Origin: Naegleria gruberi
Taxonomy: Eukaryota
DNA: 64,000 nt
Reading direction: 5' to 3' (one strand)
Assembly: GCA_000004985.1 (NCBI GenBank)
Contig: GG738928.1
Under the pieces are notes generated by a model that was given only the letters and a program-made list of their open reading frames with translations, had not been told where the DNA came from and did not search any database. Below are positions 9,350 to 55,951 of the stretch, piece by piece. The translations under genes were made by a program, and so were the position numbers. Within the stretch, counting starts at the first letter, position 1. Every line of letters begins with the position of its first letter.

Positions 9350-12300
9350 TTAAATCAATTTCGAATCATTCAACAAATTTTCTCTGGTTTTACCAGAATT
9401 TTCATAAAAAACAAACTCATCTGTTGTAGTAAATCTGGAAAAGGTATCATTCAAGTTGATAATAATCTGATCTTGTAGTGAGCTGATTGATTGTTGCAAT
9501 TTTTCATGGAATGCTTCTGGTATTTCCTTTTCATTCTTTGATTTCATTTCTTGATTGTTCTTGGCAGAGTTGACCAATTCACTAAGTGATTTTCTCATTT
9601 GTTTGAATTCGTTTCTAGTTTCGGATGGAATGTTAACTTCCTTAATGGAGCCACTTTCAATATAATTGGTAAATAATTCTTCAATCAATGAATTCACAGA
9701 GTCAATTCTGTCATTTGCTTTGATTAACTCTTGGAGTTGTTTCAGTTCCAAATATAAATGCAAGTTTTCTAATGAATATTCCTTTTTACAGAATGATTCG
9801 AATAGTTTCAGACCTTCTCTATTCGATAGTAATTGTTCCAATTCATCCTTTTCTTCATTACTCGATTGGTTTCTAAAATTCTTTTGTTTGATGAAATGAA
9901 CTAATCTCACAATAAGTGCAAATCCTCCAAATACCAACAAGTAACTAAACAAGTACAATATTTCAAATAGCAATGAAATTGAATCGTTCACTCTTGAATT
10001 TACATCACCTCTCTTGTAACTCAAACCTGACAATCCAATAATTTGTGAAATTACCAAAAATGTAAAGCAAACAATAAATAAAATCATTTCCACTCTAAAG
10101 TATAATGGAGTATCGAGTTGAATGAACCAATCATAAGCTCTCTTGATTGGAACTTTTGCCATTTTCTTGGCAGTTTCCTTATCAAACTTTTGTAAAGCTT
10201 CCTTGTTAAACGAAAGTGAACTATTTGATAAATTACTTGTTGATTTTTCATTACTATCCACAAGCATTTCAGATTCATTTCTAGAATTCAAAAGTGACAT
10301 GATCACATCTAACAAAATCAATGCACATATAAGAAATCCCAATGATAAAATCATAATTGTAAACGAAATTGAAACAATGTAAGAATATTCGATTCCTGTA
10401 ATGACACTCGTTCTCACAAGAATTACCCACAACGTCCAATACATTAGGTTCACGGTCATAAAGATTCCCATGATGGAAATCATTGCTCTTGTGGAGAGGA
10501 AAATTCTAATCACTCTCAAAATTTTGTCTCCCTTTTGGTACAATTGACTAGTTCTATCATTTTGGTTCAATGAGAATTTAATGGATAATCTATGATAGAA
10601 ATATTTGAGAATGTGAAATCTTGATGTCTGATACAAGTATGAAAACATTGCTGTCAAAGTCAAAGTGTTTACAATAATTGTAATAACATTCGAAACAATA
10701 TTCGATGCCAAATTACCATTTTCCAATTGAATCACCGTCGACTCTGTCAATCCCTCACTCTTCAATGATAATATCAACCCATTTCTAGTAGTATCCAACA
10801 AAATACTCCTCTGAACTATCAGAAATAGTCCACTTTCCACCACCAATGCAAACATTCCAATAAACGGAGTTACAAATCGACTCGCCAATGGTTGAGATTT
10901 TCGCATCACAATCAAGGCAACGAGAATTGAACTCGACAAGATGAAAAATAAAACACCAAATGAAATTTGTGCAATGTACAATTCGGATAATTGTTCGGCA
11001 GCCCTTAATGAATCAGTTGCGGTGTTATTAAGGGAGTTTTCGATAAAGGCAGCGAAGAGTGTGGTGTGCGTACATTTACAAATTAAATCTCCGTTTGATT
11101 GTAAAGTGGAAAGCGAGCAGCCGCTGGAATCCCATTGTAAAGTTGTTTCATTCCAGAATTTACAAGTGATTTGAGATGAATTGAGAGAATTGATTGTTTG
11201 ATTCAATATTGTAAAGTTAATTGAAATTGGTTGAGTCAATTCTGAAAGTGGTAATGTTTTACCTCCTAAATAAAGAGTGAAATCTTTAGAGTTGGTCAAT
11301 TGAGTTTGATTTGAAGTAAATAGAGGATTAGTATAGGTTATGAGTGATAATCCAACTTCCTTATTGTAGCCATCGTATTTTGTTAGAATGTAATCCGAAT
11401 CTAAACTAATGTCGGAGAATTTTTCTAATTTAGTGCTGTTAGAATTCTTAATAAATGTTGAAACTGTTACATTAATCAAATCTGATGAATAAACTGTGGA
11501 AATAATAGATTCGGATAATAATTTGACCGATTGCTGCAATAATAGAACAGATGTCAATTGAGTACAAGTATTCGAAACATTTGAGAAACCAAAAGAAAGT
11601 AAATTACTTGCACTTGTCAAGGTTGTTTGTAAATCAGAATCTGAAATTCTTTGCTTTGTAACGTAGCCAAGAGTTTCCTTTTCTTTTTTGTAAATTTCAT
11701 TAACTTGATTCAAATAATTTCCTAATTTGTCATTAATTGCTGTAGCAACCTCATTGGAAGAAGCTGATAAAGTAATTTGTTTCAGATTTTCCAAAGCAGT
11801 GGACGGATTGGAAATGTCAATTGTCATCTTATTGACAGACTCTACAAGTACTGAACTAGTTACTTCCTTTCTCAATTTTAAACTTGTATCATATGGAAAT
11901 ACAGTTGCAATACTACCCATTCTTGCTTTCAAAACTTCTGAAGAATCGTCCAAATTTGCACTAATCGAAACTGAACTAATCGATTGAGAATATTCAGTCC
12001 CCAACGCATCCAAACAAATTACAAACAATTCCAAACTTTGACTTGTAGCCAAACTTGTTTCATTCAAATAGGGAAGATACACAGAATCTCTTCCACTTGT
12101 CAAAAATTCTGAAATTCTAATCATTGAATTCTTAAATTTAAATCCAAAAGCAAATTTGAGAGGAGAAAGAAACAATCGACTCGCATTCGAATCTGTAAAA
12201 TTCCAAGCACCTACAACTTCCTCAATAATAAAACTTGTTTTCAGTGCAACACCTGACAATGGTTGAATATTAACAATTGCCATTGGATTTCGAATTGGTG

Positions 12301-14187
12301 GTGCGACGAGAATTACTTGTTGTGAAATGGCGATGATTTGATCCTTAATTGGCTTAATAAGGAGTGTGAAGGTGAGATTTCCAGAGGATTGGATGGTTGG
12401 TTGGATTTTGATGGAAATGATGGGATTGAAGGTCAATGTGAATAAGTTGGCGTTGTTTTTTGGTTTCGTCAAGATTCCAATAACATTTTCATCTGCTGAA
12501 ATAACTTCAGAACCAAACATGAATGAATATTTCAATGAAATGGTACAATTTGCAGTAGCACACTCATCCCTTGTTAATTTCAAATCTGAACTAGTTCTCA
12601 ATTCAACGCTCACAATATTGAAATCAACATTGTTTTTCACACCATTCACAAGTACTTGTGGAATTCCAATAGCATTCAGTGATCTTTCCACTAAAAGTGA
12701 ACAATCTATACCTAAATATCCTCCAGTACAAGTACAAAAGTCAGGTTGTAGACAATTGCCATTTCCAGAACAAACATTCGGTGAATTAGCCGAAACTCCA
12801 AAACAAATTGGAATGAAACAATTAGGTCCAGTATATCCAGGTGAACAAGTACAATTATTTGAAGAAGCACAAATACCATTTCCTGAACAAACTCTATTAT
12901 CATTTGCAGCAATTCCAAAACAACCAATCGAGCCACAATTATTTCCATAAAAACCTGGTTGACATTGACACTTGTTCATTTCAATGCATTCACCCCTTCC
13001 TGAGCAAACACTGCTACTGTTAGTACTCTCAATTCCAAAACACCAATTTGTAACACACATTGTTTTGAACTCATTCAAATAATAACCACTTTCACATGAT
13101 GGAGTTAGTGATCTAATTCTCTTTTTCAAAAATTCTGAAATATAAATTACACCACTTGTCTCATTAAATACTAAACCTCTTGCATCACTCACTGAACTAT
13201 CCAGAGCATCAGTGTTTTCATATGAAGTTGTGCTATTTCCAGCAATCATTGTAAGAGTTCCATTCTTGTCAATTCTGAAAATTCTTCCCTTATATGTTTC
13301 TGTTACAAAGACAGTTTCGTCCTTGGTAACGAATAAAGCACCACCTCCAATTGGGGAACCAGTGAATGCTAGTGTTGAAATATATCCAGTTTCGTTTATC
13401 ACTCTAACACCTTTCGTATCTGATAGGAAAATCTTTCCATTCCTAACAAAAATATCAAAAGGAGACTGAAGAATAGCACTAGTAGCTAGAACACCCTCTC
13501 CAGAATACGAAGAATCCAAATCACTTCCTGCTATTAATGAAATTATTCCATTCTTGACTAATCTAACTCTCGACTTGTCTATCAGGTAAAATTCATTCTC
13601 TGAAATTGCAAAGATTGAATTTGGACCTTTCAGAGCACTAAAAGCAGATCCATTTTCAGTGAAGGAAGACAAGGAGAAATCAGAATAGTTTCCAGCAACT
13701 GTGGAGACGAAACTATTCGGCCAATCACGAAGAGAAAGTTTTCTGACAATTCTATGTATTCTAATGATTAAAGATAATGATGAAATTGTTATATTGTGAT
13801 ATTGTGTGAAAATGTCATGTTATTAGCTTACCTGTCAACGTAAAAGAGGGTGTCATTGAAAATACTCGAGTCAGCCACAGTTGACATACAAATAGTGTTC
13901 TGATTACCATCAGGAGTGTATATTGAAGTGTTGTTTCCAATCTTGTTAGGAGAAAAACTTTCACTTTCCAATGAAAAGATTCGAATAGTACGGTTTAAAC
14001 CATCAGAAACGATTAGTTCGTTGTTGTATAAGGAAATTCCATACATTCCAATATCTGGTGTAGAAATTGGACCAATAGTCTTGATAATGTATTTAACACT
14101 AGCTTGTTTTTGTTCTTGTCCATCAACAGCCACAAACAGTAACAACACAATTGACAACAACAACCATGTATGACAGTTGACTTTCAT
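9350..14187 (-). CDS. Adhesion-GPCR-like receptor: signal peptide, NHL-type propeller, 3 EGF repeats, stalk, GPS motif, 7TM, C-terminal RGS domain; exons 13832..14187 and 9350..13742, intron 13743..13831
   Basis: ATG at 14185-14187 gives the signal peptide MKVNCHTWLLLSIVLLLFVAVDG. GTAAG donor (G at 13831) and AG acceptor (13743-13744) join in frame as ...LFYVDR/KLSLRDWPNSF.... EGF repeats: CSGRGECIEMNKCQCQPGFYGNNC, CSGNGICASSNNCTCSPGYTGPNC, CSGNGNCLQPDFCTCTGGYLGIDC. GPS motif: CKFWNETTLQWDSSGCSLSTLQSNGDLICKCTHTTLFAAF (~11043..11172). Seven hydrophobic helices span ~9900..11000. RGS domain: LKLFESFCKKEYSLENLHLYLELKQL...FTNYIESGSIKEVNIPSETRNEF (~9480..9850). Confidence 0.85.
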
Positions 14188-15035: not shown

Positions 15036-15108
15036 TGCCGACACCAGGGATCGAACCAGGGACCTTAAGATCTTCAGTCTTACGCTCTCCCAACTGAGCT
15101 ATGTCGGC
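15036..15108 (-). tRNA. tRNA-Phe (GAA)
   Basis: The reverse complement GCCGACATAGCTCAGTTGGGAGAGCGTAAGACTGAAGATCTTAAGGTCCCTGGTTCGATCCCTGGTGTCGGCA folds as a canonical cloverleaf. It has a perfect 7-bp acceptor GCCGACA/TGTCGGC, anticodon stem TAAGA/TCTTA with loop CTGAAGA, T-loop GGTTCGATCC and discriminator A. Confidence 0.95.
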
Positions 15109-26371: not shown

Positions 26372-26697
26372 ATTCTTATACTGGTTTCCGAATGCTCTTT
26401 ACTATCCATCGAATTTTCATCCACAAAACCTTTCAACAATTCCTTGATTGGACCATCAACAGCACTCTTATATTCTTCTTTCATCAAGATATAGGGTTTC
26501 AAATCATCAATTAATTTCCAGAATAAAACCAAACCAATAGAAGCCAAACTTTTATAACCACAACTAGCAATAAAAATCTTCTTTTCCAATTTTGACGCCT
26601 TTTCCTCCAATTGGTCGGCATTGAAATCGATTGGAACAGTGAGAGGGAACCCATATCTATCTAGACGGTGGGCAGTACCCTGTATTCGTTGTTCCAA
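26341..26697 (-). CDS. Open frame immediately upstream of, and overlapping, the H2A-like gene in another frame; probable 5' part of the same gene (frameshift) or a separate small gene
   Basis: 118-codon open frame with no ATG near its 5' end (the track start is TTG). Its stop (26341-26343) overlaps the downstream ATG as ATGA. The two frames are simultaneously open over 26344..26398. Confidence 0.35.
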   Translation of the reverse strand: MEQRIQGTAHRLDRYGFPLTVPIDFNADQLEEKASKLEKKIFIASCGYKSLASIGLVLFWKLIDDLKPYILMKEEYKSAVDGPIKELLKGFVDENSMDSKEHSETSIRIWKDNWLPFQ

Positions 26698-27166
26698 CCA
26701 AATTTTTTTAGAGTCGAGCCAATTTTATAAATATTTTAATATTATTTATTCTTCGGATGATATTTCGTCGCCACTTTATTCATCACTTCCACTTTGTGGA
26801 TTCTGATGCATCATCTTCCTCATATTCTGATCTGCTGGTAGTATCGTCTTGGTAAATTCTTGGAAAGCTTTTGGAGTTTATGGTTGATGGTTGGTATTTC
26901 ATCATCAACAGGATTTCCTCTTTTTGTTGCCAATTTCTTGGTTTCTTTGTTGTTGGAGATTTAGATGTAAGAAGAAGATTCCAGTCAAAGAAACTTCCTG
27001 ATGATGGGTTGTTGTATTAATTTTCTAGCCAACTGCCATGTTGTTCAGTTGCTTCCAAATACCAGCTTGTGATTGGACATTGTGGCCAGTAGACAAAATC
27101 TCTTAATTTTTTTAAATTTTAATTTAACGGTTTTTATCAACCAAATGTCAAAGCAACGGATCTTCT

Positions 27167-27340
27167 GTGGCTCGACTTTGAAATTTTTTTGTCTGACCCG
27201 GCTCGACTTGTAAAAATTTTTGTCTGACCCGGCTTGACTTGTAAATTTTTTAGCCTGACCCGGCTCGACTTCGAAATTTCGCAAGTTCTGCATAAAATGC
27301 CTCTGGCTCGACTTTGAAATTTTTACTCCCTGACCCGGCA
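27167..27340. repeat. Tandem repeat, 31-bp unit with GC-rich core (CTGACCCGGCTCGACTTGTAAAAATTTTTGT), about 5 units, degenerate at the ends
   Basis: TGACCCGG occurs at 27194, 27225, 27256 and 27331. GGCTCGACTT (or GGCTTGACTT) occurs at 27169, 27200, 27231, 27262 and 27305. The three central units have an exact 31-bp period. Confidence 0.85.
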
Positions 27341-27685
27341 TTTTACATCACTGACCACCGTCTATATCAGAGCATTATTTCTTTCCATTTTTTTGTGATT
27401 TTGTTATTGAGCGATTACAAAAACAGTAAAGCCACATGAGAGTGTCATCTAAAGGGTGTAATACACATTAAGAAATATCTACGGTAGAATGTTGTTGAAT
27501 TCTGAAACTGCATTCATTGAAAATCAATGATGTTCTTTAGGAAAGAGTATTACAATATTTATTATTTTGTTTTTTGTAATCCACTCTTCGGTATCTTCTT
27601 TCCATTTAACCATGAAGGAACTTTAAGTTCTTCAAAATTCCACAATTATTGGACGTCTTTATCCGCTCAACAATCACAAAAAAAA

Positions 27686-29541
27686 ATGGCTCAATACTAT
27701 TTACTTCGGGAGCTTGACGATTTGTCCCTAGAGGATTTGCACAAGTCTGTAAAGCCTACAAAAAAAGAGAAGACAAGCAAGGATGATAAACCAAGAAACA
27801 AAGATCAGCCAAGTAATGATGTAATACCACAAAAACTGGTGGTGTTGAACAAGTCTCACCAAATAAAACAACGCAAAGTCTATGAACGAACAAAGAAGGA
27901 GGAGACTCGTTTTATCAAACCTAAACGTAATATTGACCATTATAATGTTGCACCAACCTCACATTTTGAACAGTTGCCGACCGATTGTTTTCTTCATATT
28001 TTTGAATTTATGGAATTGACAGAAATTAAAAGGCTAGCCTACAGAATGAGTCCTTGTATTACTTTACAATTACTAGAGACGGAATCAAATCAGGGTTTTT
28101 ATAGATTATTGTGCCAAGAACAGATGAGAATGGATTTGAATTGTGCTATTGATTCCATAAATGAAAGAGGGAAAGTGAGAGGAAACTCAAGGATACGAAG
28201 ATACAATAGGCGTGTTGAAGATTCATCCAATCGAACAATATTGGGTCCGATTAAGGATTTGAGAGAGAATTTAAGAGTTTGTGTTCTGAAAGCAAAGAGT
28301 TTGTTTCCGTATTGGTTTAATGAGAATTCTGCATTGAATAAGTCAGTTTATGAAGCTGTTAAACATTCTTACTCAATTAATGAAACTCCTGTTTATCATA
28401 ATTTATCAGAACATCATCAGTCCATTTCTGATCAATATAAAGAGAAGGAAGAGAAGGAAGCAGTAGAGAAAACAAATTCATTCCTGGAAAAACTTGAGAA
28501 ACAAGTGGAAAAACAATCGAAAAGACCATCTAAATGGAAGCAAATATGGAATGGATGTTTTCTTCAAAATTTAGTGAACAGTACTATAAATGCAACAGTA
28601 GAATTTGAGAAACGAGCTCAGAAAGATTCACCACTAATTAGTGAATTAGCCAGTTACCTTAAAACAATGAGTGGCTTATTAACTTTGGAAAATACGCAAC
28701 TAAGAAGAAAGATAATGTTTGAAACTTTAACTAGAAGACGAGTACTCACACGTACTGTATTTTTTGCTAAATTAGTTGGAATTTTATACTCGTTTAGAGA
28801 TCAATATCTTCCTGAACAAATAGAACAACAATTTGAAAAATTATTAGATTTTTTCATAGAAGAATCGATTGCTCATGGTGTAGAAACTTGTCCTCTTGTT
28901 GATTGTAAGTTTGTTATTGACTTAATCTAACTTTTTCAGGTTTCATTGAAAATAATTCGCCAATTCACATGATATTAAGATCTGGACATACTCCTTTGAG
29001 TGTCAATATCATCACCAAGCATTGGAAAATTATTAAGCGCACTTCCAGAGATTTCAGATTCTATTTATTTGTAAAATGCATTTGGCAGCTGGTTGACTTT
29101 AAAGTTATACACGCCCTCTTTAAGTTTGGTATTGTTGATTCCTCTATTTTGACACATAACTTTACTAATAGAGGATCTAGATCAGTAGATATTTATTTCA
29201 TGACAACCATCGATAAATGGAATATGAATGATAATCACATTACATACTTTGGAAACATCTTCAACTTGATGGTTACCACTTTGGATGAAAGAGGGACAGA
29301 ACATTACAAAAAGCGTGAAATTAGAAGCCATAGTAGTTTATTTTCATCATCTAATCCAAGTGTTATGCTATTCTTACATAGGATATCACAATACCGTCCA
29401 AGCACTAAAGGAAACGTTGCCGACTTTTTTGCAGAGGCAATTCAAAAGTTGAAGGACAAAGTGATAACCTCATCTTTGGCAGATGATAGACCAACTTTTG
29501 AATATGTGAATTTTGGAAAAAACAAATTTGCCACGCTGTAA
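27686..29541 (+). CDS. F-box-like protein of unknown function; exons 27686..28904 and 28940..29541, intron 28905..28939 (35 nt)
   Basis: F-box-like FEQLPTDCFLHIFEFMELTEIKRLAYRMSP. The intron is GTAAGTTTGTTATTGACTTAATCTAACTTTTTCAG, with a CTAAC branch-like motif. The phase-1 junction is in frame (...CPLVD-C-FIENNSPIHMILRSGH...). The likely ATG is at 27686 (AAAAAAAATGG context, MAQYYLLRELDD). The open frame extends to an ATG at 27527 encoding an implausible F/Y-rich leader. Confidence 0.6.
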
Positions 29542-34733: not shown

Positions 34734-34856
34734 AAAAGACTACAGCACCACAGGTTCCCAAGTTGTCTCCAACCTCAGCACTGATGTGGCTCGACGATGC
34801 TTAACTTCTCAAATCGGACGGGATGAGGTGCATTCATCGTGATATGGCCGTAGCCA
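34734..34856 (-). rRNA. 5S ribosomal RNA
   Basis: Reverse complement: GGCTACGGCCATATCACGATGAATGCACCTCATCCCGTCCGATTTGAGAAGTTAAGCATCGTCGAGCCACATCAGTGCTGAGGTTGGAGACAACTTGGGAACCTGTGGTGCTGTAGTCTTTT. Helix I is GGCTACGGC/GCTGTAGTC with 2 G:U pairs. Conserved blocks are CGGCCATA, AAGTTAAGC and TGGGAA. A Pol III T4 terminator follows. The core is 34738..34855 (118 nt). Confidence 0.9.
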
Positions 34857-35648: not shown

Positions 35649-36725
35649 TTAGTGTCTTGGACCGTAGTCTCTACTGTCTCTAGGACGAGATTCAAACTCA
35701 TTACGAGATGATCCTTGATTGTTGTTCTTATTTGAATCATTGGTTGTTCTTCCATATGAAGGTCTATCAGAATAATTTCCATAAGATTGATGTCTGTCAT
35801 AATATGCTCCTCCTCTATTGTTGTTGTTATTGTAAGAACGAGGTGGTGGAATTTCAATTTGATTTGAATTATCAGACACTCTACCATAAGAAGATGTTGG
35901 ACCATAATAGGATGAAGAATTATTTCTTGAATCAACTCTTCCATAGTGAGGTGAATTATTTTGTGGAGGAGGGTAAGGTTGATATCTATTATTATTATTG
36001 TTGGAATAGTGATAATCACGAGTTGATCGTGGATTTCTGTATGGTGATGATGGCCTAGAAGATGACGATCCATATCGATCTCGATCATCTCGGAATGGAG
36101 GAGAAGGTGGAGAATAATTATCAGAGTGACGATGATGATCTGATCCATTGTTTCCTCCACGATGATAGTCATTATTATAGGATGATGATCTGCTACTATC
36201 ACGATCATTATCATAAGATCTTCTACCAGACATTGAACCTCCTCCTCTTGGTTCTCTTCCACCTCTTGGTCCTCGTTTCTTTAGCATCTTTATATAATCA
36301 TCTCTCTTCATACCACCATCTTTTCCTCTTCCGTATTGTCTCCCTTCTACGAAACCTGTATCGATGGCAATTTTAAGAGCACGATTATTTAATTTACATC
36401 CTCTACAATATTTAACGCATTCCTCTGCATCGGATCTGTGATAGAACTCAACAAAACAAAATCCACAAGGTGTTAACGTATTTCTATTTAAACCCATTAC
36501 AACTCGCTTAACTTCTCCACATTTTTCAAACAATTCGTATATTTGCTCCTCCTTGGTATAAAAACTTAGATTTTCTACATAGATTGTTGAAGATTGAGAA
36601 AGTGCCCTCTCGAAATCCTCTTCATTTCCGCCCTCATTTACATAGTGTTTTAATAAATATTCATATTCTCTCTTGCTTCCGTGAAAAAATTTTAAAGGAT
36701 GATGAGCTTCGAGAAGATGAGCCAT
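35649..36725 (-). CDS. NCBP2: Nuclear cap-binding protein subunit 2 (CBP20) with long R/G/S/Y/N-rich C-terminal tail
   Basis: [61 protein letters not shown]...[18 protein letters not shown] matches the CBP20 RRM and its flanks. The track start at 36788 is GTG. The first ATG is at 36723-36725 ([10 protein letters not shown]-rich context). Confidence 0.9.
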
Positions 36726-37056
36726 TTTTTTTGTATCTAAATTTTTATTCTTCCCCTTCAACATTAATTCATCGAGCCTTCTTTGCACAAAGGAATATCA
36801 ACACCACAAACATAGCTTAGCATAGCAGACAAAGAGGCTTTGACAGAGTTGTGGATTCTTTGCCATCACCCTTGACTAGACATGGTACAAGAAAACATTT
36901 TGCACAACATTGGAATGCCCTTTGAAATGAATTATCATAACATACACACCATTAATACCTTACTGCCCTCTTATTGTGACAGGTCCATTTATCTATTGTT
37001 TATTGTCACAGCACAGTATGAGGACACAGTAATGAATTAACATCTTCTTTTAAAAA

Positions 37057-40000
37057 ATGCCTCAAGATAGAAGGGCCAACCTCTTGCTCTTGATTATCAC
37101 AGTTATTTTGTGTTTCGCAGCAACGGCCGACTTGTCTAAGGGAATTTTAACGGAGGCAGAATATCAAACCTACATCTCCAATTCATGCCCTTCTAAGCCT
37201 CTCTCCACTGATGCTTGGTACTCTGAGGAAAGTAACTTGATAAATATTATTCTTGCGGGTGATAATTCAAAGCTTCCTCTGATCTACCCTCAGGAGTATT
37301 CGACGAATAACACTATTGTAAGGGATGATATTCTCAATACAACTACAACAAGCAACTCTTCACCAGCAACAACAATATTACAATCAGGAAACAATACAAC
37401 AGTGAACAACTCCTCCTCAACAAGCAACACAACTATTACCATTATTCAAGGGTGGGATGATCTTCTCAAAGTTCTTAATGAGACTTTGAAACCCAACGCT
37501 ACCCTCGCTGATAACTCAACAAGTGGAAATAATAGTTCTCTAGGATCGAATGGTTCAATCATTTTTAATTCCACCAATTCACAAACAACTACTAATGGAA
37601 ATGTACCTCTGTTGAATACTACCCTTAACTCAACCACAAACTCTAGCCCTTCTGTTGGAACAAATACAACAAATACTCAGTTATCCTCCAATACAACCCC
37701 TAGTGTTATTTCGAATAGTACTGGTACAGCTTCGACAATCAATTCCACTAATGCTAACCTGAACACAGTGAATGGAACAAGCGGAAGTACAGAAATTGGT
37801 TCGACCTATGGATCCAACAGCACTTCTGGTCAAGGTAATAGCACAACCACGAACACGCCATTTGGTTCTAACTCTAATTCCATAGGATCAACAATAGTAA
37901 CTAACGGAACTGTTGCAGCCGGTGCAATTTCTAGTTCAACAGTAACCTCAAACGGTGGGTATGTTGGCTCCAATACCTCTGGTTCAATAAGCACAACTTC
38001 AACTGGATCTAATAGCCAAGGATTAGGATCTAGCTCCTCCACAAATGTCTCTGCTAATAATACTGCAACTGTTAGTGGACCTTCAAGTGGATTTAATTCT
38101 ACTTCTGGGGCAACTTCTGGGGCAAACAACGGTTCCGTTACAACAAGTACTGGAACAAATGGTCAATCAACTACTGGAACAAGCTTAGGATCGACCTCCT
38201 CTAATGGTTCAAACAGTGGTTCAACTAATGGAACAAATACAGGTTCCGTTTCCACAAGTACTGGAACAAGTGGTTCCTCTTCAAGTGTTTCAACAAACTC
38301 AGGATCAACAAGCTCTTCTAACTCTGGTTCAACTAATGGAGCAAACACCGGATCAATTGGCGTTTCTAACTCTGGATCTTCTATTGGAACAAATACTGGT
38401 TCTGGTTCAACAATCACTGGAACCAGTTCAGGTTCTTCAACTAGTTCTAACACCAATACAGGAAACAATAATGTCTCCAATTCTGGATTAAATGGTCAAG
38501 GAACAAATTCTACTTCAAGCTCCTCAGCTACTAACATTTCAGGTTCAAATAATACTGGATCAAGTAATCAAGGAAGTAATTCAGGATCCAGTTCTACTGG
38601 AACAAGTAGCACTTCAAGTACTGGATTAAATGGTAGCGTTTCTTCAGGTGGTTCTAACACTGGAACAAATGGAGTATCAAATAATGGATCAGCAACTGGC
38701 ATTGCTCCCAATGTCTCTGGAACAAGTGGTAGTTCCTCTTCAAGTGTTTCAAACACTGTCTCCTCAAACTCAGGTTCGAGTGCTAATAATACTTCAACTG
38801 TTAGTGGACCTTCAGCAGGATCTAATTCTACTTCTGGAACAACTTCTGGAGCAAACAGCGGTTCCGTTACAACAAGTACTGGAACAAACGGTCAATCAAA
38901 TTCTGGAGCTAGCTCAGGATCTACCTCCTCTGGCTCTTCAAGTGGTTCGAACAGTGGTCCTGGCTCTAATACTGGTACAAGTGATACTAATACAGGGTCA
39001 ACAAGCTCTTCTAACTCTGGTTCTTCGAGTGGAGCAAGTACTGGTTCAGGTTCTTCAACAAATTCTAACACTAATCCAGGAAACAACAATGTCTCCAATT
39101 CTGGATTAAATGGTCAAGGAACAAATTCTGCTTTAGGCTCCTCAGCTACTAACATTTCAGGAGCAAGTAATACTGGACAAGTTCTACATCTCAAGCTCTG
39201 GATTAAGTAATTCAGGATCCAGTTCTACTGGATCAAGTAGCACTTCAAGTACTGGATTAAATGGTGGCTCTTCTACAGGTGGTTCTAACACTGGAACAAA
39301 TGGAGTATCAAATAATGGATCAGCAACTGGCATTGCTCCCAATGTCTCTGGAACAAGTGGTAGTTCCTCTTCAAGTGTTTCAAACACTGTCTCCGCAAGC
39401 TCAGGTTCGAGTGCTAATACTTCAACTGTTAGTGGACCTTCAGCAGGATCTAATTCTACTTCTGGAACAACTTCTGGAGCAAACAGCGGTTCCGTTACAA
39501 CAAGTACTGGAACAAACGGTCAATCAAATTCTGGAGCTAGCTCAGGATCTACCTCCTTTGGCTCTTCAAGTGGTTCTACCAATGCTGGACCCAATTCTAG
39601 TAGTAATTCAACGGTCAGTGGTGGTTCTTCAAATGCATCTGGTTTTACAAGTACTGGACCGAATACTCAAGGTGGTTCATTATCTGACTCCTCAAATACT
39701 GGAACTGCTAGCACTCCAAGTGCTGGATTAAGTAGTGGATCTTCTTCAGGTGGTTCTAACACTGGGACAAATGGAGCATCAAATAATGTTTCTGGAACAA
39801 ATGGTGGTTCATCTTCTAGTGTAACAAACAGTGGTTCTGGTTCTAATACTGGTATTAATACTGGAACAATTGGCGTTTCTAACTCTGGATCTTCTATAGG
39901 AACTGGGGTAAATACTGGTGCTGGAGCAAGTTCAGGATCTTCAACAAATTCTAACATCAATACAGGAACCAATAGTGTCTCCAATTCTGGATTAAATGGT

Positions 40001-42713
40001 CAAGGAACAAATTCTACTTCAAGCTCCTCAGCTACTAACATTTCAGGTTCAAGTTATACTGGTACAGGAGGTACTACCTCTTCAAGTTCTGGATTAAGTG
40101 GTGGTTCTTCGTCAGGTAATGCTATTACTGGATCAACAACTGGCAACACTGCAAATGTCTATGGAGGAAATGGTGTTATCAATACAGGATCAACCAGCAC
40201 TGGAGCAAATACTGGTTTACCAAGCACAGGACCTTCAACTACTCAATCACTGGAACAATTGGTGTTATCAATTCAGGATCAACGAGCTCTTCTAACTCTG
40301 GATCTTCGCCTGGAGCAAATACTGGTTCTGGTACAACAATCACTGGAACTAGTTCAGGATCTTCAACAAATTCTAACACTAATACAGGAACCAATAGTGT
40401 ATCAGGTTCAAATACTAGTGGCTCTATCACAAGCCCATCCACTGTATCCACTAGCTCTTCTAACATTGGAACAAATACTGGTTCCGGTTCGAGTAATACT
40501 GGAACTTCTAGTAATGGATCAATTGTTTCAAATAGTGGCTCCACAAGTACTGAAACTACTAGCACCCCAAATACTGGATTAAATGGTGGTTTTTATTCAG
40601 GTGGTTCCAACACTGGAACAAATGGAGTATCAAATAATGAATCAACAACTGGTATCACTACAAATGTTTCTGGAACAATTGGGGGTTCATCTTCTAGTGT
40701 ATCAAATAGTGGTTCTGGTTCTAATACTGGTATTAATACTGGAACAATTGGCGCTTCTAACTCTGGATCTTCTATTGGAACAAATAATGGTTCTGGTTCA
40801 ACAATCACTGGAACCAGTTCAGGATCTTCAACTAGTTCTAACATCAATACAGGAAACAATAATGTCTCCAATTCTGGATTAAATGGTCAAGGAACAAATT
40901 CTACTTCAAGCTCTTCAGCTACTAACATTTCGGGTTCAAGTAATACTGGTACAGGAGGTACTACCTCTTCAAGTTCTGGATTAAGTGGTGGTTCTTCTTC
41001 TGGTGGTTCTAACACTGGAACAACTGAATCAACAATTGGCAACACTGCAAATGTCTATGGAGGAAATGGTGTTATCAATACAGGATCAACCATTTCTGGA
41101 ACAAACACTGGTTTACCAAGCACAGGAGCATCAACTACTTCAACAGGCAATCCTGGTTCTGGTTCAGCAAACACTGGAACCACTTCAAACGGTTCTACCA
41201 ATACAGGTACCACAATTAATAGTGGTTCAGGATCTACCAATACAGGTACCACAATTAATAGTGGTTCAGTATCTGGTTCTTCAACAGGTTTAAACAACTC
41301 TGGTTCTTCAACAAATAACAGTAGCTCAACAATTTCTACCACAACAAACCCAGCCACTTCCAGTGGTTCAGGATCTTCAACAAATTCTAACACTAATACA
41401 GGAAACAATAATGTCTCCAATTCTGGATCAAATGGTCAAGGAACAAATTCTGCTTCAAGCTCTTCAGCTACTAACATTTCAGGTTCAAATACTAGTGGTT
41501 CAAGCTCATCTTCTGGTTCTTCTAACACTGGAGCAAATACTGGATTAACAAGCACAGGACCATCCAATACTCCAACCAATAATGGGGGTTCCTCTAATTC
41601 TGGGTCAAGCTCTAGTGGAACTAGTGGTTCAACTTCAGTTATTTTTGGAGCAACAAGCTCCTCCAATCCTAACTCTGGCTCTAATACTGGTACAAGTGGT
41701 GATACCAATACAGGATCAACGAGCTCTTCTAACTCTGGATCTTCGACTGGGGCAAATACTGCTTCAAGCAATGCTGGATCAGGTACAAACAATGGAAACA
41801 ATGGATCAACAAGTTCAAATAGCAATTCAACAAGTTATAGTGCTCTTGATACTCTTCGTAAAGAAATAGAACGATTAGTTACAGATATTATTGGGCGACC
41901 TGATCCAAACCTGCCAACACCAGATCTTCAAAAAGGAATAGACACACTTAAAAATGACATTCTTGGTGTCAAACCTGCCTCACCGACTACTACTAGTCTA
42001 CCACCAACTCAACAAACTCTAACAGCTCAATTAACAACTCACCAACATCAAACAATAATGTTACAAAACCTTCTAACAATACAAACACAACCACAACCCT
42101 TAACGCCTCAAAAAGCACAACCCCAACAAGGAACTCAACCACTACTTCGACTAGTGTATCAACCACAACAACCGATAGTACTTCCAATGCTATTCAGTCA
42201 AGTAATAGAAACAACAATGCTGGAAGTCCAATCAGATGTAAACAGAAATGTCCTGTTAGGTATGAACAGAAAGTGTGTATAACCAAAAGAAAAACCAGTA
42301 GTTCTTCTTCTGTTGTTGCATCCAATATTGTTGCAGTCATGGCAGAGAACATTGCCACCATTAAGAATGGATCACCTGATGGGTTAATAATTGGTTTATC
42401 TGTTGCAGGAGGTGTGTTAGCAATTCTGTGTTGTACAGGATCGTCTATCATTGGATGTGTTCTGTACGCTAAGAGAAAGAGAAATAATTTCTGGAATCTT
42501 TATGAAGATAAAAATGTCAGAATGCTTATGGAGGGTCACATTGATGAAAGTGCATATGCAGATGTTGAATTAGAGGATGATGAAGAATTTGATCCACTAG
42601 AAGCAAAATCTTCTTACTCTGGCTCTAATGAAGATGATTTCAAGTTTGACGAAGAATCAGAAGAATCTTCAGAATCAGATAAACAAGAAGAAGAAATTGA
42701 ATTTGAATATTAA
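37057..42713 (+). CDS. Giant mucin-like Ser/Thr/Asn/Gly-rich surface protein (signal peptide ... TM + acidic tail); reading frame broken at least 3 times (pseudogene or assembly errors)
   Basis: Signal peptide MPQDRRANLLLLIITVILCFAATA from ATG 37057. The S/T/G/N-coding frame is frame 1 to ~39190, frame 2 to ~40243, frame 1 to ~41995, then frame 0 to the stop at 42713. The last segment holds a Cys motif (CKQKCPVRYEQKVC), the TM helix LIIGLSVAGGVLAILCCTGSSIIGCVLY and an acidic tail. The middle frames have no start codon, so they are absent from the ORF track. A ~90-nt block (GGAAACAATAATGTCTCCAATTCTGGATTAAATGGTCAAGG...) recurs at 38461, 39079, 39965, 40852 and 41401. Confidence 0.6.
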
Positions 42714-42836
42714 AAAACTAGTAATAAATTTAATATCAAATTATATGAGTTTTAATTCCTTAAATCGTTGGAGCGGGATTGAAAGCCATTGAAATAGAAA
42801 CACGAAAACTTCAGCTTGGAAACTAAAAATAAAAAA

Positions 42837-44337: not shown

Positions 44338-45489
44338 TTAAAGAGTGAATCCAAGATTCTTTTGAATGTCAGCAACATTCCAGAACAAAACTTTGCCGTC
44401 CAAACCAGCGGTAACAAACTTGCTAACCTTACCACCTTCAACCTTGAAAGCTTCAATACAGTTAATAACATTGTGGTGACGAGTTTGTGGAGCATCGCTC
44501 TTTTCAGCATTTTGAGAACCAACAGTTGAAGTAGCTTGGAATTTTAAGAAAGCACTTCTGACACCAACACCTTGAGCCGCACCAGTCTTCTTCATTTCAT
44601 CACAAGATCCCTTCAAAACCCACTTGTTTCCTTCCAAAGCAAAAGCATATGGAGCAAAATCATAACCAGCAGCAACAAAGACCTTGTCGGAAAGGAACAA
44701 ACCACAATAGAATGGTAACTTTTCATGACGAACAACTTGAGATTCAATTGGTTGAGCATCAGCAACAGATTGATCTTGTGAAGCATAATCAACAAATTGA
44801 ACAGTAGAATCGTGTCCAATGAAAGCTAACCATTTACCATTTGGTGAGAATTGAACAGAGTGAACCCATCCCTTTGATGTATATTCAACAAAGACATCAC
44901 CAAACTTTAACTTGTTATCGGCACTTCTCTTACCGTCCACTTCCTTGAGGTATGTATTAAAAGTACGAGCTTTCATGTCACTACTACCAGTAGCTAATGT
45001 GTTAATAGTTGGATGCCAAGCAACAGATTTGATGGTTGATTTGTGTTTCTTAATCATCTTTGAAATGTACCACTTGTTTTCAGCTTCATAGAAACAAACA
45101 GCAATCATCTTGGAAGCACTACCAACAGCAAACTTTTCTTCGTTTGGAGACCACTTACAACAAGTAGCTGCTTTAGTAAGACGAAGTAAAACAAGTGTTG
45201 GATTCCATTTCTTTTCCTTTTCATTATATTCCCATACGTAGGCATTACGATCTTGAGCACAAGATAAAATCTTGTTAGATTTTGGTGCCCAATCAATACC
45301 AGTTACATAGTGGTCATGATCAGTCAATGTATGTTCTCTTTCCCACTTTTCGAAATCTTCACTACCATTAGTCTTATAGATGTGAATTTCACTGTTTCCT
45401 GGCGAGACAGCAACTCTTGATTTATCACCATTCCAAGCCATACAGCTGATAGCTTGAGCGAGGACTTTTTGGGTGTTGAGCAAGGACAT
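44338..45489 (-). CDS. ARPC1: Arp2/3 complex subunit 1 (p41-ARC, WD40)
   Basis: AISCMAWNGDKSRVAVSPGNSEIHIY...HDHYVTGIDWAPKSNKILSCAQDRNAYVWEY...WNPTLVLLRLTKAATCCKWSPNEEKFAVGSASKMIAVCFYEAENKWY...HKSTIKSVAWHPTINTLATGSSDMKARTFNTYLKEVD is colinear with ARPC1A/B as I remember them. Single exon, with expression-type codon bias. Confidence 0.92.
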   Translation of the reverse strand: MSLLNTQKVLAQAISCMAWNGDKSRVAVSPGNSEIHIYKTNGSEDFEKWEREHTLTDHDHYVTGIDWAPKSNKILSCAQDRNAYVWEYNEKEKKWNPTLVLLRLTKAATCCKWSPNEEKFAVGSASKMIAVCFYEAENKWYISKMIKKHKSTIKSVAWHPTINTLATGSSDMKARTFNTYLKEVDGKRSADNKLKFGDVFVEYTSKGWVHSVQFSPNGKWLAFIGHDSTVQFVDYASQDQSVADAQPIESQVVRHEKLPFYCGLFLSDKVFVAAGYDFAPYAFALEGNKWVLKGSCDEMKKTGAAQGVGVRSAFLKFQATSTVGSQNAEKSDAPQTRHHNVINCIEAFKVEGGKVSKFVTAGLDGKVLFWNVADIQKNLGFTL

Positions 45490-45730
45490 TTTTTTTTTTT
45501 AATAAATTATTAAATTATTTAAATTTTTAATCGATGTGATGATGGCTTGATTTTTTCAAAGGCTTTAAAGTTTTGCAAAGAAGGCTTGTGTGATGACGCT
45601 CTGCTTTGCCGATCTAATCAGTGAAATCAATGATTGGAATTTTTTTTGAAAAGTGAATCGTGACGACTTGTTGATTGCTGATGGTAGTAGGATTGATATT
45701 AACAAAATAATGATTCAAATCAGTTTTTTA

Positions 45731-46195
45731 CAGGGTTCTCCACATTCATTTACATTGTGAATGTCAAACAAGAATAGATACGACAATCGACAAACATGAA
45801 AATAATAAATGTGAAACGACTAACCGTTACGAATAAAATTTAAAAAAAACATCATGATGATGTTTATTGTTTGCAACATAACAACACCCTTCCACATTAT
45901 TTTCACATAAACAACCATTAAACCTGATAATGTTTCAAACAATAACATTACAACCTCAAGCTTCCGAAGATATTCAGTATTGGCTGCCAAGACTTACGCT
46001 TGTTTCTATTTGATATCCAAAGCGCAGGTGACAATGTAAACCGATGTGAAAACACACCAATTTAATTAACACTACCGAAACTAATAAATTTAACCCAAAT
46101 TAAGAGTGACAATATGAATGAATCTTTTCTATGTCAATGATGAAAAAAGAAGTTTATTTTATTTCCATTTTCGAATTTCACGTGGAGAACCNCTG
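45731..46195. mobile_element. Non-autonomous hAT-like MITE (465 bp) with CAGGGTTCTCCAC terminal inverted repeats and 8-bp target-site duplication
   Basis: The left end is CAGGGTTCTCCAC at 45731. The right end is GTGGAGAACCNCTG, ending at 46195 (reverse complement CAGNGGTTCTCCAC). Both ends are flanked by GTTTTTTA (45723..45730 and 46196..46203). There is no long ORF inside. An 8-bp TSD and CAG-initiated TIRs are hAT-superfamily hallmarks. Confidence 0.7.
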
Positions 46196-46395
46196 GTTTT
46201 TTAAAAGATGGGGATACAATACAGATGGATCGGTGGCGGTTCTGATTATCAGATCTTAATATTTGTTGTTAACTATTTAGAAACTTTCATCAAATTCTGG
46301 TTAGAATTATAAAGTTCCATGTTCCGAAAACTATTTCTAAGGATTAATTCATCAAACAAGAGTTTCCGATACTTTTATCATTGATTCCAATTATT

Positions 46396-48711
46396 ATGGA
46401 CAAAAGTTTATTCATCTCTTTCATTGAATGTCGATGGACGAAACTAAGGTCAATTCTTGTCTCTACAACCTTTCCAAAAAACAATAGTTATGGAAATATA
46501 GAATTTTCAAAGATGCAAAAAATGCTCACACCTTCTCATTCACTATCACTTCTCCATTTGATGCTCACTAGTTGGTTTCTAACAATCTTGTTATTCTATA
46601 CGAAACCTATCGTCTCATTATCCTCCTCTTCTTCTTCATCTTTTATTCAATACATTTCCAGCAACAAAATTAATGAATTAAATTCCTCTACCATTATTAT
46701 CGGAGCAAATAATTTCATCAATTTATATCTATGGAAAGATTTAGAAATTTATTCGATAGGTCAATTACTTAATTCCACTAATTCTCAGAAAGAATTAAAC
46801 TTTTTTTCATATGACACGAATGGAATTTCAGAAAATGATATGATTAGAATGATTCGAATACTTCAATCTAATAATTTTGCACTCATTCCATCCAAATGGA
46901 AGTTTAAACAAGTTGTCATGCAGAAAAACACCGAATGTCTCTATGGAAGTTTATTCGAAAGGTTTGATATTCTAATTGGGACTGCTGATGAGTTTGCTGA
47001 GAGAGTGAGATTGAGTAGAGGTCATCAACAGAGGAGAAAGAAATCTTTCGAATATTTAAATCCTAATGATTTTTATATCATTCCACTTTTTCCTAGAAAT
47101 TTCTATATTGTTACAATGGAAAATTACAATCATTTGAATTTATTCGAAAGTGAATTTTACAATTATTTCATTTCGAATAGTAGATACAATCAAACAAATT
47201 GTCTAGAAAGTATCAAACATGATTCGTCCATTATCGAACATTTACATGGAATTCTCTATTTCACATCTTTACAAATTGACTGGAGTTTACAATATTTCAA
47301 TATTTCACACATTCCTTACAATAATTCAATAATTTCCAACTTTATATTTTCAAATCTCTTTGAAAGTAATGACTATATTTGGAATTATTCCAAAGTTTCA
47401 CAACACTTGTGGGAATCCACTTGTTATCATTGCACAACCACTTCATGTGTGGCTGAGAATTGGACATGGGGTGATTCATTGGATTTGACAGTTGTGTGTA
47501 GCGGAGTTTTATTCTATGCAATTCTATTAATTTCTGGAGCTTTTAAATCTCCGGTTGTGTATAGAAAATATGGAATTATATTTTTGTCACCATTTCTAAA
47601 TATGGGATTATTTACAGCCTTGTTGAATGCATTTAATAATTCATGTATTTCTCTGGGAACTATATTTTCAAATTATGCTGCTTGTTTGATGAATATTATT
47701 TATATTTGTACTGTTTTGAGATATTTCTATTTAAGGAATTTATATAATTTTGTTAAGAGTTCAAAATATCCATCTTTGTACAAATATTTGGCTGGTGAAA
47801 TGTTTGGATTCTTCTTTACAATTATCATTCCAATGATTTTTACTTTAATATTTCCAATTACTATAATTGTACTTGTTGGCGATTACAATGCTGATTTATT
47901 TAATTTGGCAAATAATTTAATAATTGCAATTTTGGCAGCTGTTTCATGCATTGCTGGATTTTCAACTTTAATTTTTGATGCTATTAAGAATAGAAAGATA
48001 ATTTCCAAATTTGGATTTTCAAGATTTTTCATATTTGAAGATCCTTACTTTTTTAGAATTGACTTGTTATCACTTCCAATAATTTTCTTATTACTTGTTT
48101 TATTGGCAATTATTTTCATGATTGCACCAATTTATGTTCTAATTGTCAGATTCCTAATTGGGATGACATTATATCTCTTATTTGGAACAAGTTTAGTAAT
48201 GTTAATTGTTGAACAGTTGAAATTTAAAACATTTAGAATTAAATCAGCAAATGATGAAGTTATTGACAAGAATCAACAAGAAGATATTACTAAGGAATAT
48301 ATTGAAATGATTAAGGAAAATAAGAATGAAGATTTGTGTCAACTTTTTAAATTATACTGTCAAAAGTCATTGGCATTGGAAAATTTAATGTTGATGGATG
48401 TATTGATTGAAAAAAAGAGAAAATCAACAAGTATTTCAGTAGAGGATATGAAACATATTAAGGAAGAATTTTTAATTTCCTATTCTGCGTATGAAGTTAA
48501 CATTTCCTCACAAGTGAGACAAAATTTCGAACAAAACTTGCAAGATGCTTTATCGAAGAATGAAGCAAAGGTCAACAATGAAATTCTCACAGATTTAATG
48601 GTGGAAATTGAGACAAATATCAAGTCAACATTTATGCGTTTTGCCAAGACAAGTGAATTTTTGGAATGGCAAGAAATTTACTCTTTACAAAAAGAAAGAG
48701 CAGTTTTGTAA
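46396..48711 (+). CDS. 7TM receptor-like protein with C-terminal RGS domain (second 7TM-RGS in window)
   Basis: The track start is TTG. Candidate ATGs are at 46396 and 46513; the latter gives a signal-anchor MQKMLTPSHSLSLLHLMLTSWFLTILLFY. A ~330-aa Cys-containing ectodomain is followed by 7 hydrophobic helices (VVCSGVLFYAILLISGAF ... FLIGMTLYLLFGTSLVMLIV). RGS-like tail: LCQLFKLYCQKSLALENLMLMDVLIEKK...EEFLISYSAYEVNISSQVRQNF...TFMRFAKTSEFLEW. Confidence 0.8.
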   Translation: MDKSLFISFIECRWTKLRSILVSTTFPKNNSYGNIEFSKMQKMLTPSHSLSLLHLMLTSWFLTILLFYTKPIVSLSSSSSSSFIQYISSNKINELNSSTIIIGANNFINLYLWKDLEIYSIGQLLNSTNSQKELNFFSYDTNGISENDMIRMIRILQSNNFALIPSKWKFKQVVMQKNTECLYGSLFERFDILIGTADEFAERVRLSRGHQQRRKKSFEYLNPNDFYIIPLFPRNFYIVTMENYNHLNLFESEFYNYFISNSRYNQTNCLESIKHDSSIIEHLHGILYFTSLQIDWSLQYFNISHIPYNNSIISNFIFSNLFESNDYIWNYSKVSQHLWESTCYHCTTTSCVAENWTWGDSLDLTVVCSGVLFYAILLISGAFKSPVVYRKYGIIFLSPFLNMGLFTALLNAFNNSCISLGTIFSNYAACLMNIIYICTVLRYFYLRNLYNFVKSSKYPSLYKYLAGEMFGFFFTIIIPMIFTLIFPITIIVLVGDYNADLFNLANNLIIAILAAVSCIAGFSTLIFDAIKNRKIISKFGFSRFFIFEDPYFFRIDLLSLPIIFLLLVLLAIIFMIAPIYVLIVRFLIGMTLYLLFGTSLVMLIVEQLKFKTFRIKSANDEVIDKNQQEDITKEYIEMIKENKNEDLCQLFKLYCQKSLALENLMLMDVLIEKKRKSTSISVEDMKHIKEEFLISYSAYEVNISSQVRQNFEQNLQDALSKNEAKVNNEILTDLMVEIETNIKSTFMRFAKTSEFLEWQEIYSLQKERAVL

Positions 48712-55901: not shown

Positions 55902-55951
55902 NNNNNNNNNNNNNNNNNNNNNNNNNNNNNNNNNNNNNNNNNNNNNNNNNN
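55902..55951. other. Assembly gap (50 N)
   Basis: Run of 50 n, with a further single n at 55974. Confidence 0.99.

What the first reader, a model, noticed from the sequence alone, without database searches (positions are those of the whole stretch)
45723..46203. hAT-like MITE with 8-bp target-site duplication between ARPC1 and the 7TM-RGS gene
A 465-bp AT-rich segment is bounded by imperfect terminal inverted repeats: CAGGGTTCTCCAC on the left and CAGNGGTTCTCCAC (reverse complement) on the right. It is flanked on both sides by the identical octamer GTTTTTTA. An 8-bp TSD and CAG-initiated TIRs (compare Ac CAGGGATGAAA) are diagnostic of the hAT superfamily. No transposase ORF is present, so it would be non-autonomous. 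It is the only mobile-element signature I found in the window.
Basis: partly seen in the sequence, partly recalled or inferred. Interest (0 to 1): 0.55.

Follow-up and report, generated by a model that had tools for sequence, protein, structure and literature searches.

The report
Small hAT-type transposon insertion in Naegleria
A 465-bp non-coding piece of DNA between two Naegleria gruberi genes has the end structure left by a hAT-type cut-and-paste transposon; this is an ordinary kind of mobile-element insertion, and I could not test whether it belongs to a multi-copy family.

Summary
At 45731-46195 a 465-bp non-coding segment starts with CAGGGTTCTCCAC and ends with the reverse complement of CAGnGGTTCTCCAC. 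The n at 46192 is a single ambiguous assembly base. The segment is flanked on both sides by exactly GTTTTTTA.

Chance is unlikely. None of 400 dinucleotide shuffles reached its information content. The analytic expectation is 2e-4 to 7e-4 per window and 0.1 to 0.4 per 41-Mb genome.

The window is Naegleria gruberi. The insertion sits in the divergent promoter region between ARPC1 and a multi-pass membrane protein with a weak RGS domain match.

The structure meets every hAT criterion that can be read from one copy:
- an 8-bp target-site duplication;
- short terminal inverted repeats;
- the 5'-YARNG terminal motif on both ends.

The 14-nt right end also matches the published SPIN/hAT-N1 terminus CAGYGGTTCTCAAC at 12 of its 13 called bases. 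The element has no coding capacity, no Rfam match and no transposase nearby.

Three things could not be tested because the rest of the N. gruberi genome was unreachable: copy number (needed for the MITE label), an autonomous partner, and an empty site.

Verdict: a real non-autonomous hAT-type insertion is likely (about 0.75). It is ordinary and of low interest.

The parts
45723..45730 (.). Left copy of the 8-bp target-site duplication, GTTTTTTA
   Evidence: It lies directly against the left terminal repeat. The base before it (A) differs from the base before the right copy (G), so the repeat is exactly 8 bp.
45731..45743 (+). Left terminal inverted repeat, CAGGGTTCTCCAC (13 nt, starts CAGGG = YARNG)
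   Evidence: It is the only match in the window at up to 2 mismatches.
45731..46195 (.). Whole element: 465 bp, non-coding, 31.6% GC
   Evidence: No ORF longer than 56 aa. The 56-aa ORF has 0 hits among 1.84e9 representative proteins. No Rfam match at E<=1. No second copy of the body in the window. No enrichment of subterminal motifs.
46182..46195 (-). Right terminal inverted repeat. It reads CAGnGGTTCTCCAC on the minus strand (14 nt, ambiguous base at 46192).
   Evidence: It matches the published hAT terminus CAGYGGTTCTCAAC at 12 of 13 called bases (PMC3014272 table 1).
46196..46203 (.). Right copy of the 8-bp target-site duplication, GTTTTTTA
   Evidence: GTTTTTTA occurs 7 times on the + strand of the window, so an adjacent match has a probability of about 1e-4 once the TIR pair is given.
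44338..45489 (-). Context: ARPC1 gene. Its ATG is 233 bp from the left TSD.
   Evidence: 81% identical to N. fowleri ARPC1; hits are named Arp2/3 complex subunit 1. Distance.
46396..48711 (+). Context: multi-pass membrane protein with a C-terminal RGS-like domain. The first ATG is 192 bp from the right TSD and the annotated start (46522) is 318 bp from it.
   Evidence: 100% identical to NCBI 'predicted protein [Naegleria gruberi]'. RGS match E=2.7e-4, below the Pfam cut-off. Cluster of about 7 hydrophobic segments at residues 360-608.

Best explanation
The segment is a non-autonomous cut-and-paste DNA transposon of the hAT superfamily. It inserted into the about 430-bp divergent promoter region between ARPC1 and the receptor-RGS gene of Naegleria gruberi.

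Inferred mechanism, from established knowledge of hAT elements: a hAT transposase encoded elsewhere in the genome bound the 13-14-nt terminal inverted repeats. It excised the element from a donor site and integrated it at staggered cuts 8 bp apart in the target ...ATCA|GTTTTTTA|AAAG.... Repair of the two single-stranded gaps produced the two GTTTTTTA copies.

Shown here:
- the TIR/TSD architecture and its non-random nature;
- the YARNG termini;
- the absence of coding capacity;
- the intergenic position.

Inferred only:
- the identity and existence of the transposase source;
- that other copies exist;
- that the intact 8/8 TSD and near-perfect TIRs mean a fairly recent insertion;
- any effect on the two flanking promoters.
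For: The TSD and TIR sequences and coordinates were read directly.

Chance is unlikely. None of 400 shuffles reached the observed information content. The expectation is at most 7e-4 per window and 0.1-0.4 per genome.

Published hAT criteria are met. These are an 8-bp TSD, TIRs of 5-27 or 10-25 bp, and the terminal motif YARNG (PMC3517528; PMC3942097; PMC3014272). Both ends read CAGGG/CAGnG.

The right end, CAGnGGTTCTCCAC, differs at one called base from the SPIN/hAT-N1 terminus CAGYGGTTCTCAAC.

The element is non-coding and matches no Rfam family. Both ends lie in intergenic DNA, close to genes, as is usual for small non-autonomous elements.

The size and architecture closely parallel the Drosophila hAT MITE Mar: 610 bp, 11-bp TIR CAG(G/A)GGTAGGC, 8-bp TSD.
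Against: - Only one copy is visible. No second copy of the TIR or the body occurs in the 64 kb.
- No hAT transposase was found in the window. None could be sought in the genome.
- hAT elements in Naegleria are not documented in the papers I could search. Only Kolobok and MuDR are mentioned there.
- The TSD is low-complexity and does not fit the nnnTAnnn or NYYTARRN target patterns.
- There is no enrichment of subterminal repeats that would suggest transposase-binding sites.
- The resemblance to SPIN-type termini rests on 14 nt only.
- Real sequence gives more loose TIR/TSD look-alikes than shuffles do.
Confidence: 0.75

Rival explanations
1. It is a non-autonomous element of another cut-and-paste superfamily that can also leave roughly 8-bp duplications, for example P, Mutator-like, Merlin, Zisupton or Novosib. 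It would be mobilised the same way by a different transposase.
For: One copy gives a single TSD length, and the TSD does not fit hAT target consensi. MuDR elements are documented in N. gruberi (PMC3164196), whereas I found no paper documenting hAT there. That other superfamilies make 7-9-bp TSDs is from my own knowledge and was not tested here.
Against: The N. gruberi MuDRF element has 9-bp TSDs. Naegleria Kolobok makes TTAA TSDs with RR/YY termini. Neither fits. The CAG start, the YARNG motif and the near-identity to CAGYGGTTCTCAAC all point to hAT.
Confidence: 0.1
2. It is a chance coincidence: a 13-nt inverted repeat next to a T-rich octamer that happens to recur, in ordinary intergenic DNA with no history of transposition.
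For: The TSD is G+T6+A and occurs 13 times in the window on both strands. About 10% of shuffles contain some TSD8/TIR13 structure. Real sequence yields more loose look-alikes than shuffles; one is a 42.3-bit candidate at 26608-27987 whose right end lies in a probable coding motif. About 0.1-0.4 such structures are expected somewhere in a 41-Mb genome.
Against: None of 400 shuffles reached the observed information content. The expectation is at most 7e-4 for this window. The repeat boundaries coincide exactly: the TIR starts at the first base after the TSD on both sides. The termini also match an independent external criterion (YARNG and the SPIN-type terminus) that played no part in the statistics.
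Confidence: 0.07
3. It is an old, now immobile single-copy relic, or a co-opted piece, of a transposon. It would persist because it contributes promoter or regulatory sequence to ARPC1 and/or the receptor-RGS gene, so it would not be a member of a live MITE family.
For: It lies 233 bp upstream of the ARPC1 ATG and 192-318 bp upstream of the other gene's start. It makes up about half of the divergent intergenic region. No other copy is seen in 64 kb.
Against: The perfect 8/8 TSD and the TIRs intact at every called base argue against great age. There is no conservation evidence: the upstream neighbourhood of ARPC1 is not syntenic in N. fowleri or in the metagenomic relatives. Nothing tested here bears on regulatory function.
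Confidence: 0.08

Closest known systems
Mar, a hAT (Buster-family) MITE of Drosophila willistoni (PMC3517528)
   Same: Small non-coding element (610 bp against 465 bp here). Short TIRs starting with CAG (11 nt, CAG(G/A)GGTAGGC, against 13-14 nt here). 8-bp TSDs. Frequently within or near genes.
   Different: Mar is a demonstrated family of dozens of copies, with a reconstructed transposase and a TSD consensus of nnnTAnnn. Here there is one copy, no partner, and a TSD (GTTTTTTA) that lacks the central TA. The two share no sequence beyond CAG(G)GG.
SPIN / hAT-N1_AC / hAT-N3_AC type hAT elements of tetrapods (PMC3014272, table 1)
   Same: Termini CAGYGGTTCTCAACCT and CAGTGGTTCTCAACCTGTGG against CAGnGGTTCTCCACGT here. 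That is 12 of 13 called bases identical in the first 14. They also share 8-bp TSDs, the YARNG motif, and many short non-autonomous derivatives of 135-800 bp.
   Different: Those families have the TSD pattern NYYTARRN, 16-nt or longer TIRs and thousands of copies in vertebrates. Here the similarity stops after about 14 nt, the host is a heterolobosean amoeba, and the left arm lacks the fourth base. This is a resemblance of termini only. It is not evidence of family membership or of horizontal transfer.
DNA transposons already reported in Naegleria gruberi: MuDRF (PMC3164196) and Kolobok (PMC9587614)
   Same: They are cut-and-paste TIR elements in the same genome. This shows that N. gruberi hosts class II transposons.
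   Different: MuDRF has 9-bp TSDs. Kolobok has TTAA TSDs with 5'-RR/YY-3' termini. The element here has an 8-bp non-TTAA TSD and CAG termini.

Membership tests
hAT superfamily | 8-bp target-site duplication | tested here: met
   GTTTTTTA at 45723-45730 and 46196-46203. It is exactly 8 bp and abuts both TIRs. Criterion from PMC3517528, PMC3942097 and PMC3014272.
hAT superfamily | Short terminal inverted repeats (5-27 bp / 10-25 bp) | tested here: met
   13 nt (left) and 14 nt (right). All called bases are complementary, with one n/indel.
hAT superfamily | Terminal motif 5'-YARNG | tested here: met
   Left CAGGG, right CAGnG. Motif as stated in PMC3014272.
hAT superfamily | Mobilised by a hAT transposase (BED finger, DDE core, hATC dimerisation domain) carried by an autonomous element with the same termini | not testable with these tools
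   None of the 27 window ORFs of at least 180 aa that I scanned against Pfam has a transposase domain. The rest of the N. gruberi genome could not be fetched.
hAT superfamily | Target-site preference of a hAT family (Buster nnnTAnnn; NYYTARRN/NTCTAGAN for SPIN-like; Ac-type nTnnnnAn, the last from my own knowledge) | tested here: inconclusive
   GTTTTTTA lacks the central TA and has T rather than A at position 7. A single insertion cannot define or refute a consensus.
MITE (miniature inverted-repeat transposable element) | Short, no coding capacity, with TIRs and TSD | tested here: met
   465 bp. Longest ORF is 56 aa, with no homologue. TIR and TSD as above.
MITE (miniature inverted-repeat transposable element) | Multiple, often many, copies in the genome, each with its own TSD | not testable with these tools
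   One copy in 64 kb. A metagenome scan for both TIRs returned one unrelated GC-rich contig, which is a chance match. A viral scan returned 0. Genome-wide BLAST was not possible.
MITE (miniature inverted-repeat transposable element) | Located in or near genes; AT-rich interior | tested here: met
   233 bp and 192 bp from the two flanking start codons. GC is 31.6%, which is simply the genomic average and not an enrichment.
Mutator-like (MuDR) elements of N. gruberi | 9-bp (9-11-bp) TSD | tested here: not met
   The TSD is exactly 8 bp. The criterion of a 9-bp TSD for the N. gruberi MuDRF element is from PMC3164196.
Kolobok | TTAA target-site duplication and 5'-RR...YY-3' termini | tested here: not met
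   The TSD is GTTTTTTA and the termini are CA...TG. Criterion from PMC9587614.

The most novel reading that the evidence does not exclude
The element is a recently mobile member of a hAT lineage in Heterolobosea that has not been described in the literature I could search. Its termini are nearly identical to the SPIN/Charlie-type terminus CAGYGGTTCTCAAC of tetrapod hATs. That would imply either very deep conservation of the transposase-terminus recognition code or horizontal movement of this hAT lineage between amoebae and animals. It would also mean N. gruberi carries a currently active hAT system.
Probability: 0.12. Interest if true: 0.4.

Novelty: new member of a known kind. Interest (0 to 1): 0.15.

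Why it matters
It matters little beyond annotation. If confirmed genome-wide, it would add a hAT non-autonomous family to the repeat catalogue of Naegleria gruberi. It would mark a probably recent insertion that roughly doubles the shared promoter region of ARPC1 and a receptor-RGS gene. It would also give a handy presence/absence marker for comparing N. gruberi strains. The SPIN-like terminus is a small curiosity worth one BLAST search. Nothing here challenges current understanding of transposons.

Tried and rejected
1. Other copies in the window. A TIR search at up to 2 mismatches and a word-7 blastn of the body against the masked window found nothing.

2. Reaching the rest of the genome. 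Exact-protein look-ups all returned 'not on record': the ARPC1 ORF, the RGS ORF, the NCBI N. gruberi model P0121 and its paralogue P0122. Genome-wide copy counting was therefore impossible.

3. Empty-site test in relatives.
- N. fowleri (L001, L002) and the metagenomic relatives (L003-L005) share the ARPC1/Mod_r side, but upstream of ARPC1 they carry different genes.
- The closest relative, at 91% ARPC1 identity, is a 1238-bp contig with only 18 bp of upstream sequence.
- The RGS gene has no close orthologue on record.

4. Metagenome scan with both TIRs spaced 420-450 nt. The single hit, L006, is a GC-rich coding-like contig. It has no body similarity, no CTG end and no TSD, so I rejected it as chance. 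A viral-contig scan with the left 18-mer returned 0.

5. Hidden coding or RNA function.
- ORFs are at most 56 aa.
- The 56-aa ORF has 0 hits among 1.84e9 proteins.
- Rfam gives 0 at E<=1, and no tRNA lies there.

6. Subterminal transposase-binding repeats. Shared k-mers between the two 150-nt ends are not enriched (P = 0.17-0.5).

7. Literature.
- The exact TIR string is in no held paper.
- No held paper documents hAT in Naegleria.
- The N. gruberi genome paper and a review of it are not held.

8. A second TIR/TSD candidate at 26608-27987 turned up in a relaxed scan. I judged it probably spurious, because its right end lies in a weak F-box motif of an ORF.

9. I left the third homology search unused. 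A generic hAT transposase query would list only the 120 best hits, and Naegleria proteins would not be expected among them.

Full report
**What is there**

- GTTTTTTA at 45723-45730;
- CAGGGTTCTCCAC at 45731-45743;
- about 440 bp of unremarkable sequence;
- GTGGAGAACCnCTG at 46182-46195;
- GTTTTTTA again at 46196-46203.

The element is 465 bp. The 10-nt core GGTTCTCCAC occurs only at these two places in the 64-kb window, and in opposite orientation. The octamer positions are confirmed. The bases just outside the octamers differ, so the direct repeat is exactly 8 bp and its inner edges coincide with the first base of each inverted repeat.

I have two small corrections:
- The ambiguous base is at 46192. 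It is one of only two isolated n's in the window; the other N's are two 50-N gaps.
- The segment is not especially AT-rich. Its GC is 31.6%, against 28-30% in the flanks and about 32% overall.

**Is it more than chance?**

I scanned the window and dinucleotide-preserving shuffles for any 8-bp direct repeat that directly encloses a 13-nt inverted repeat with at most one edit, for spans of 50-5000 bp. The real window has one such structure, this one.

About 10% of shuffles also have one, but all of those are AT-rich. When hits are scored by information content under the window's base composition, none of 400 shuffles reached the observed 42.8 bits; the best was 41.5.

An analytic estimate gives 1.5e-4 to 6.6e-4 expected per window and 0.1-0.4 per 41-Mb genome. 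If the n is a spurious base call and the TIRs are a perfect 13/13, the estimate falls to 2e-6 per window.

One caution applies. A looser scan (YAR start, at most 1 mismatch in 12 nt, at most 1 mismatch in the TSD) gave 3 hits in the real sequence against 0.18 per shuffle. The best of these is at 26608-27987. Its right end lies inside a weak F-box motif of an ORF, so it is probably spurious. Real DNA is therefore somewhat richer in look-alikes than shuffles. Even so, the structure under review is fully matched at every called base and lies wholly in intergenic DNA.

**Where it is**

The window is Naegleria gruberi. The ORF at 46396-48708 is 100% identical to an NCBI 'predicted protein [Naegleria gruberi]' on a 160,583-bp scaffold.

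The minus-strand ORF at 44338-45489 is ARPC1, 81% identical to the N. fowleri protein.

The plus-strand neighbour has a cluster of about seven hydrophobic segments at residues 360-608. It also has a sub-threshold RGS match at its C-terminus (E=2.7e-4). Its N. gruberi paralogue carries a recorded RGS domain.

The element lies in the divergent region between the two genes. It is 233 bp from the ARPC1 ATG and 192 bp from the first ATG of the other ORF, or 318 bp from that gene's annotated start. Removing the element and one TSD copy would shrink this intergenic region from 906 bp to 433 bp.

**What it is not**

- It encodes nothing. The longest ORF is 56 aa, and that ORF has no relative among 1.84 billion representative proteins.
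- It matches no Rfam family even at E<=1, and no tRNA is there.
- None of the 27 ORFs of at least 180 aa that I scanned against Pfam has a transposase, integrase or reverse-transcriptase domain.
- The two 150-nt ends share no more short motifs than shuffled ends do. There is therefore no visible array of subterminal binding sites.

**What it most likely is**

Published descriptions define hAT elements by three structural features. These are 8-bp TSDs, short TIRs (5-27 bp in PMC3517528, 10-25 bp in PMC3942097) and the terminal motif 5'-YARNG (PMC3014272). All three are met: an 8-bp TSD, TIRs of 13-14 nt, and ends reading CAGGG and CAGnG.

Table 1 of PMC3014272 also lists hAT termini such as:
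- SPIN_AC, CAGYGGTTCTCAACCT;
- hAT-N1_AC, CAGTGGTTCTCAACCTGTGG.

The right end here, CAGnGGTTCTCCAC, is identical to these at 12 of its 13 called bases, and the n falls on the Y position. This suggests the 14-nt right arm may be the original form and the left arm has lost one base, although a base-calling artefact is equally possible. The resemblance played no part in the chance statistics, so it is independent support for a hAT origin. It covers only about 14 nt and is not evidence that the element belongs to the SPIN family.

The closest published analogue in overall architecture is the Drosophila hAT MITE Mar: 610 bp, an 11-nt TIR CAG(G/A)GGTAGGC, and 8-bp TSDs.

**Mechanism**

This is inferred from established hAT biology and was not tested here. 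A transposase supplied in trans recognises the ends, excises the element and integrates it at 8-bp staggered cuts. Gap repair then duplicates GTTTTTTA. The intact TSD and TIRs suggest the insertion is not ancient.

**What could not be tested**

The features that would turn 'hAT-like insertion' into 'member of a hAT MITE family' are other copies, an autonomous partner with the same ends, and an empty site. None could be examined.
- The rest of the N. gruberi genome was unreachable.
- The region upstream of ARPC1 is not syntenic in N. fowleri or in the metagenomic relatives.
- The nearest relative's contig stops 18 bp upstream of the gene.
- A viral scan returned nothing.
- The papers I could search document Kolobok (TTAA TSD) and MuDR (9-bp TSD) in Naegleria, but not hAT. 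Neither fits this element.

The single TSD does not fit the Buster (nnnTAnnn) or NYYTARRN target patterns. For one copy this is uninformative.

**Verdict**

The best explanation is a non-autonomous hAT-type transposon insertion (about 0.75). The rivals are:
- another superfamily that makes roughly 8-bp TSDs (about 0.10);
- an immobile or co-opted relic (about 0.08);
- coincidence (about 0.07).

The 'MITE' label and the word 'diagnostic' go beyond the evidence. This is an ordinary kind of feature, at most a new member of a known kind, and it may already be catalogued in repeat databases I could not consult. One BLAST of the element against the full assembly would settle it.

Noticed in passing
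window 26608-27987: A second, looser TIR/TSD candidate: CAATTGGTCGGC / CAATCGGTCGGC with TTTTCCTC / TTTTCTTC, spanning 1380 bp. It carries more information than any hit in 40 shuffles. However, its right end falls in a weak F-box motif (aa 148-170, E=0.08) of ORF 27527-28930, and its left end falls in a 118-aa ORF. It is probably spurious.
   Followed up: partly
window 27169-27279: A 31-bp tandem repeat, 3.6 copies, 85% matches (consensus GGCTCGACTTGGAAATTTTTTTGTCTGACCC). It lies in the intergenic region upstream of ORF 27527-28930.
   Followed up: no
window 34737-34855 (-): A full-length 5S rRNA gene (100.8 bits) sits alone in a gene-poor 3.8-kb stretch between protein-coding ORFs.
   Followed up: no
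window 9092-9164 (+) and 15036-15108 (-): Two tRNA genes by Rfam. ARAGORN reports only the second one (tRNA-Phe GAA). The first scores 45.8 bits and was missed by ARAGORN.
   Followed up: no
window 9350-13672 (-): A 1440-aa ORF combines EGF/teneurin-like repeats, a GPS (GPCR proteolysis site) motif and a C-terminal RGS domain. It is a second receptor-RGS fusion in the same window, with an adhesion-GPCR-like architecture.
   Followed up: no
window 5033-5082, 55902-55951, 55974: Two 50-N assembly gaps and one more isolated n. The first gap lies inside the 952-aa ORF 4970-7828, so that ORF's apparent continuity across the gap is an artefact of translating N's.
   Followed up: no
window 36000-42000: GC content rises to 38-41% here, against about 30% elsewhere. 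This includes a 3.6-kb stretch (39211-42815) with no ORF of at least 180 aa.
   Followed up: no
L001 4667-5251; L003 592-1389; L004 449-1153: The gene immediately upstream of ARPC1 differs between N. fowleri, two metagenomic Naegleria-like contigs and N. gruberi, while the downstream Mod_r/VPS37-like neighbour is conserved. The ARPC1 upstream boundary therefore looks like a synteny breakpoint in the genus.
   Followed up: partly
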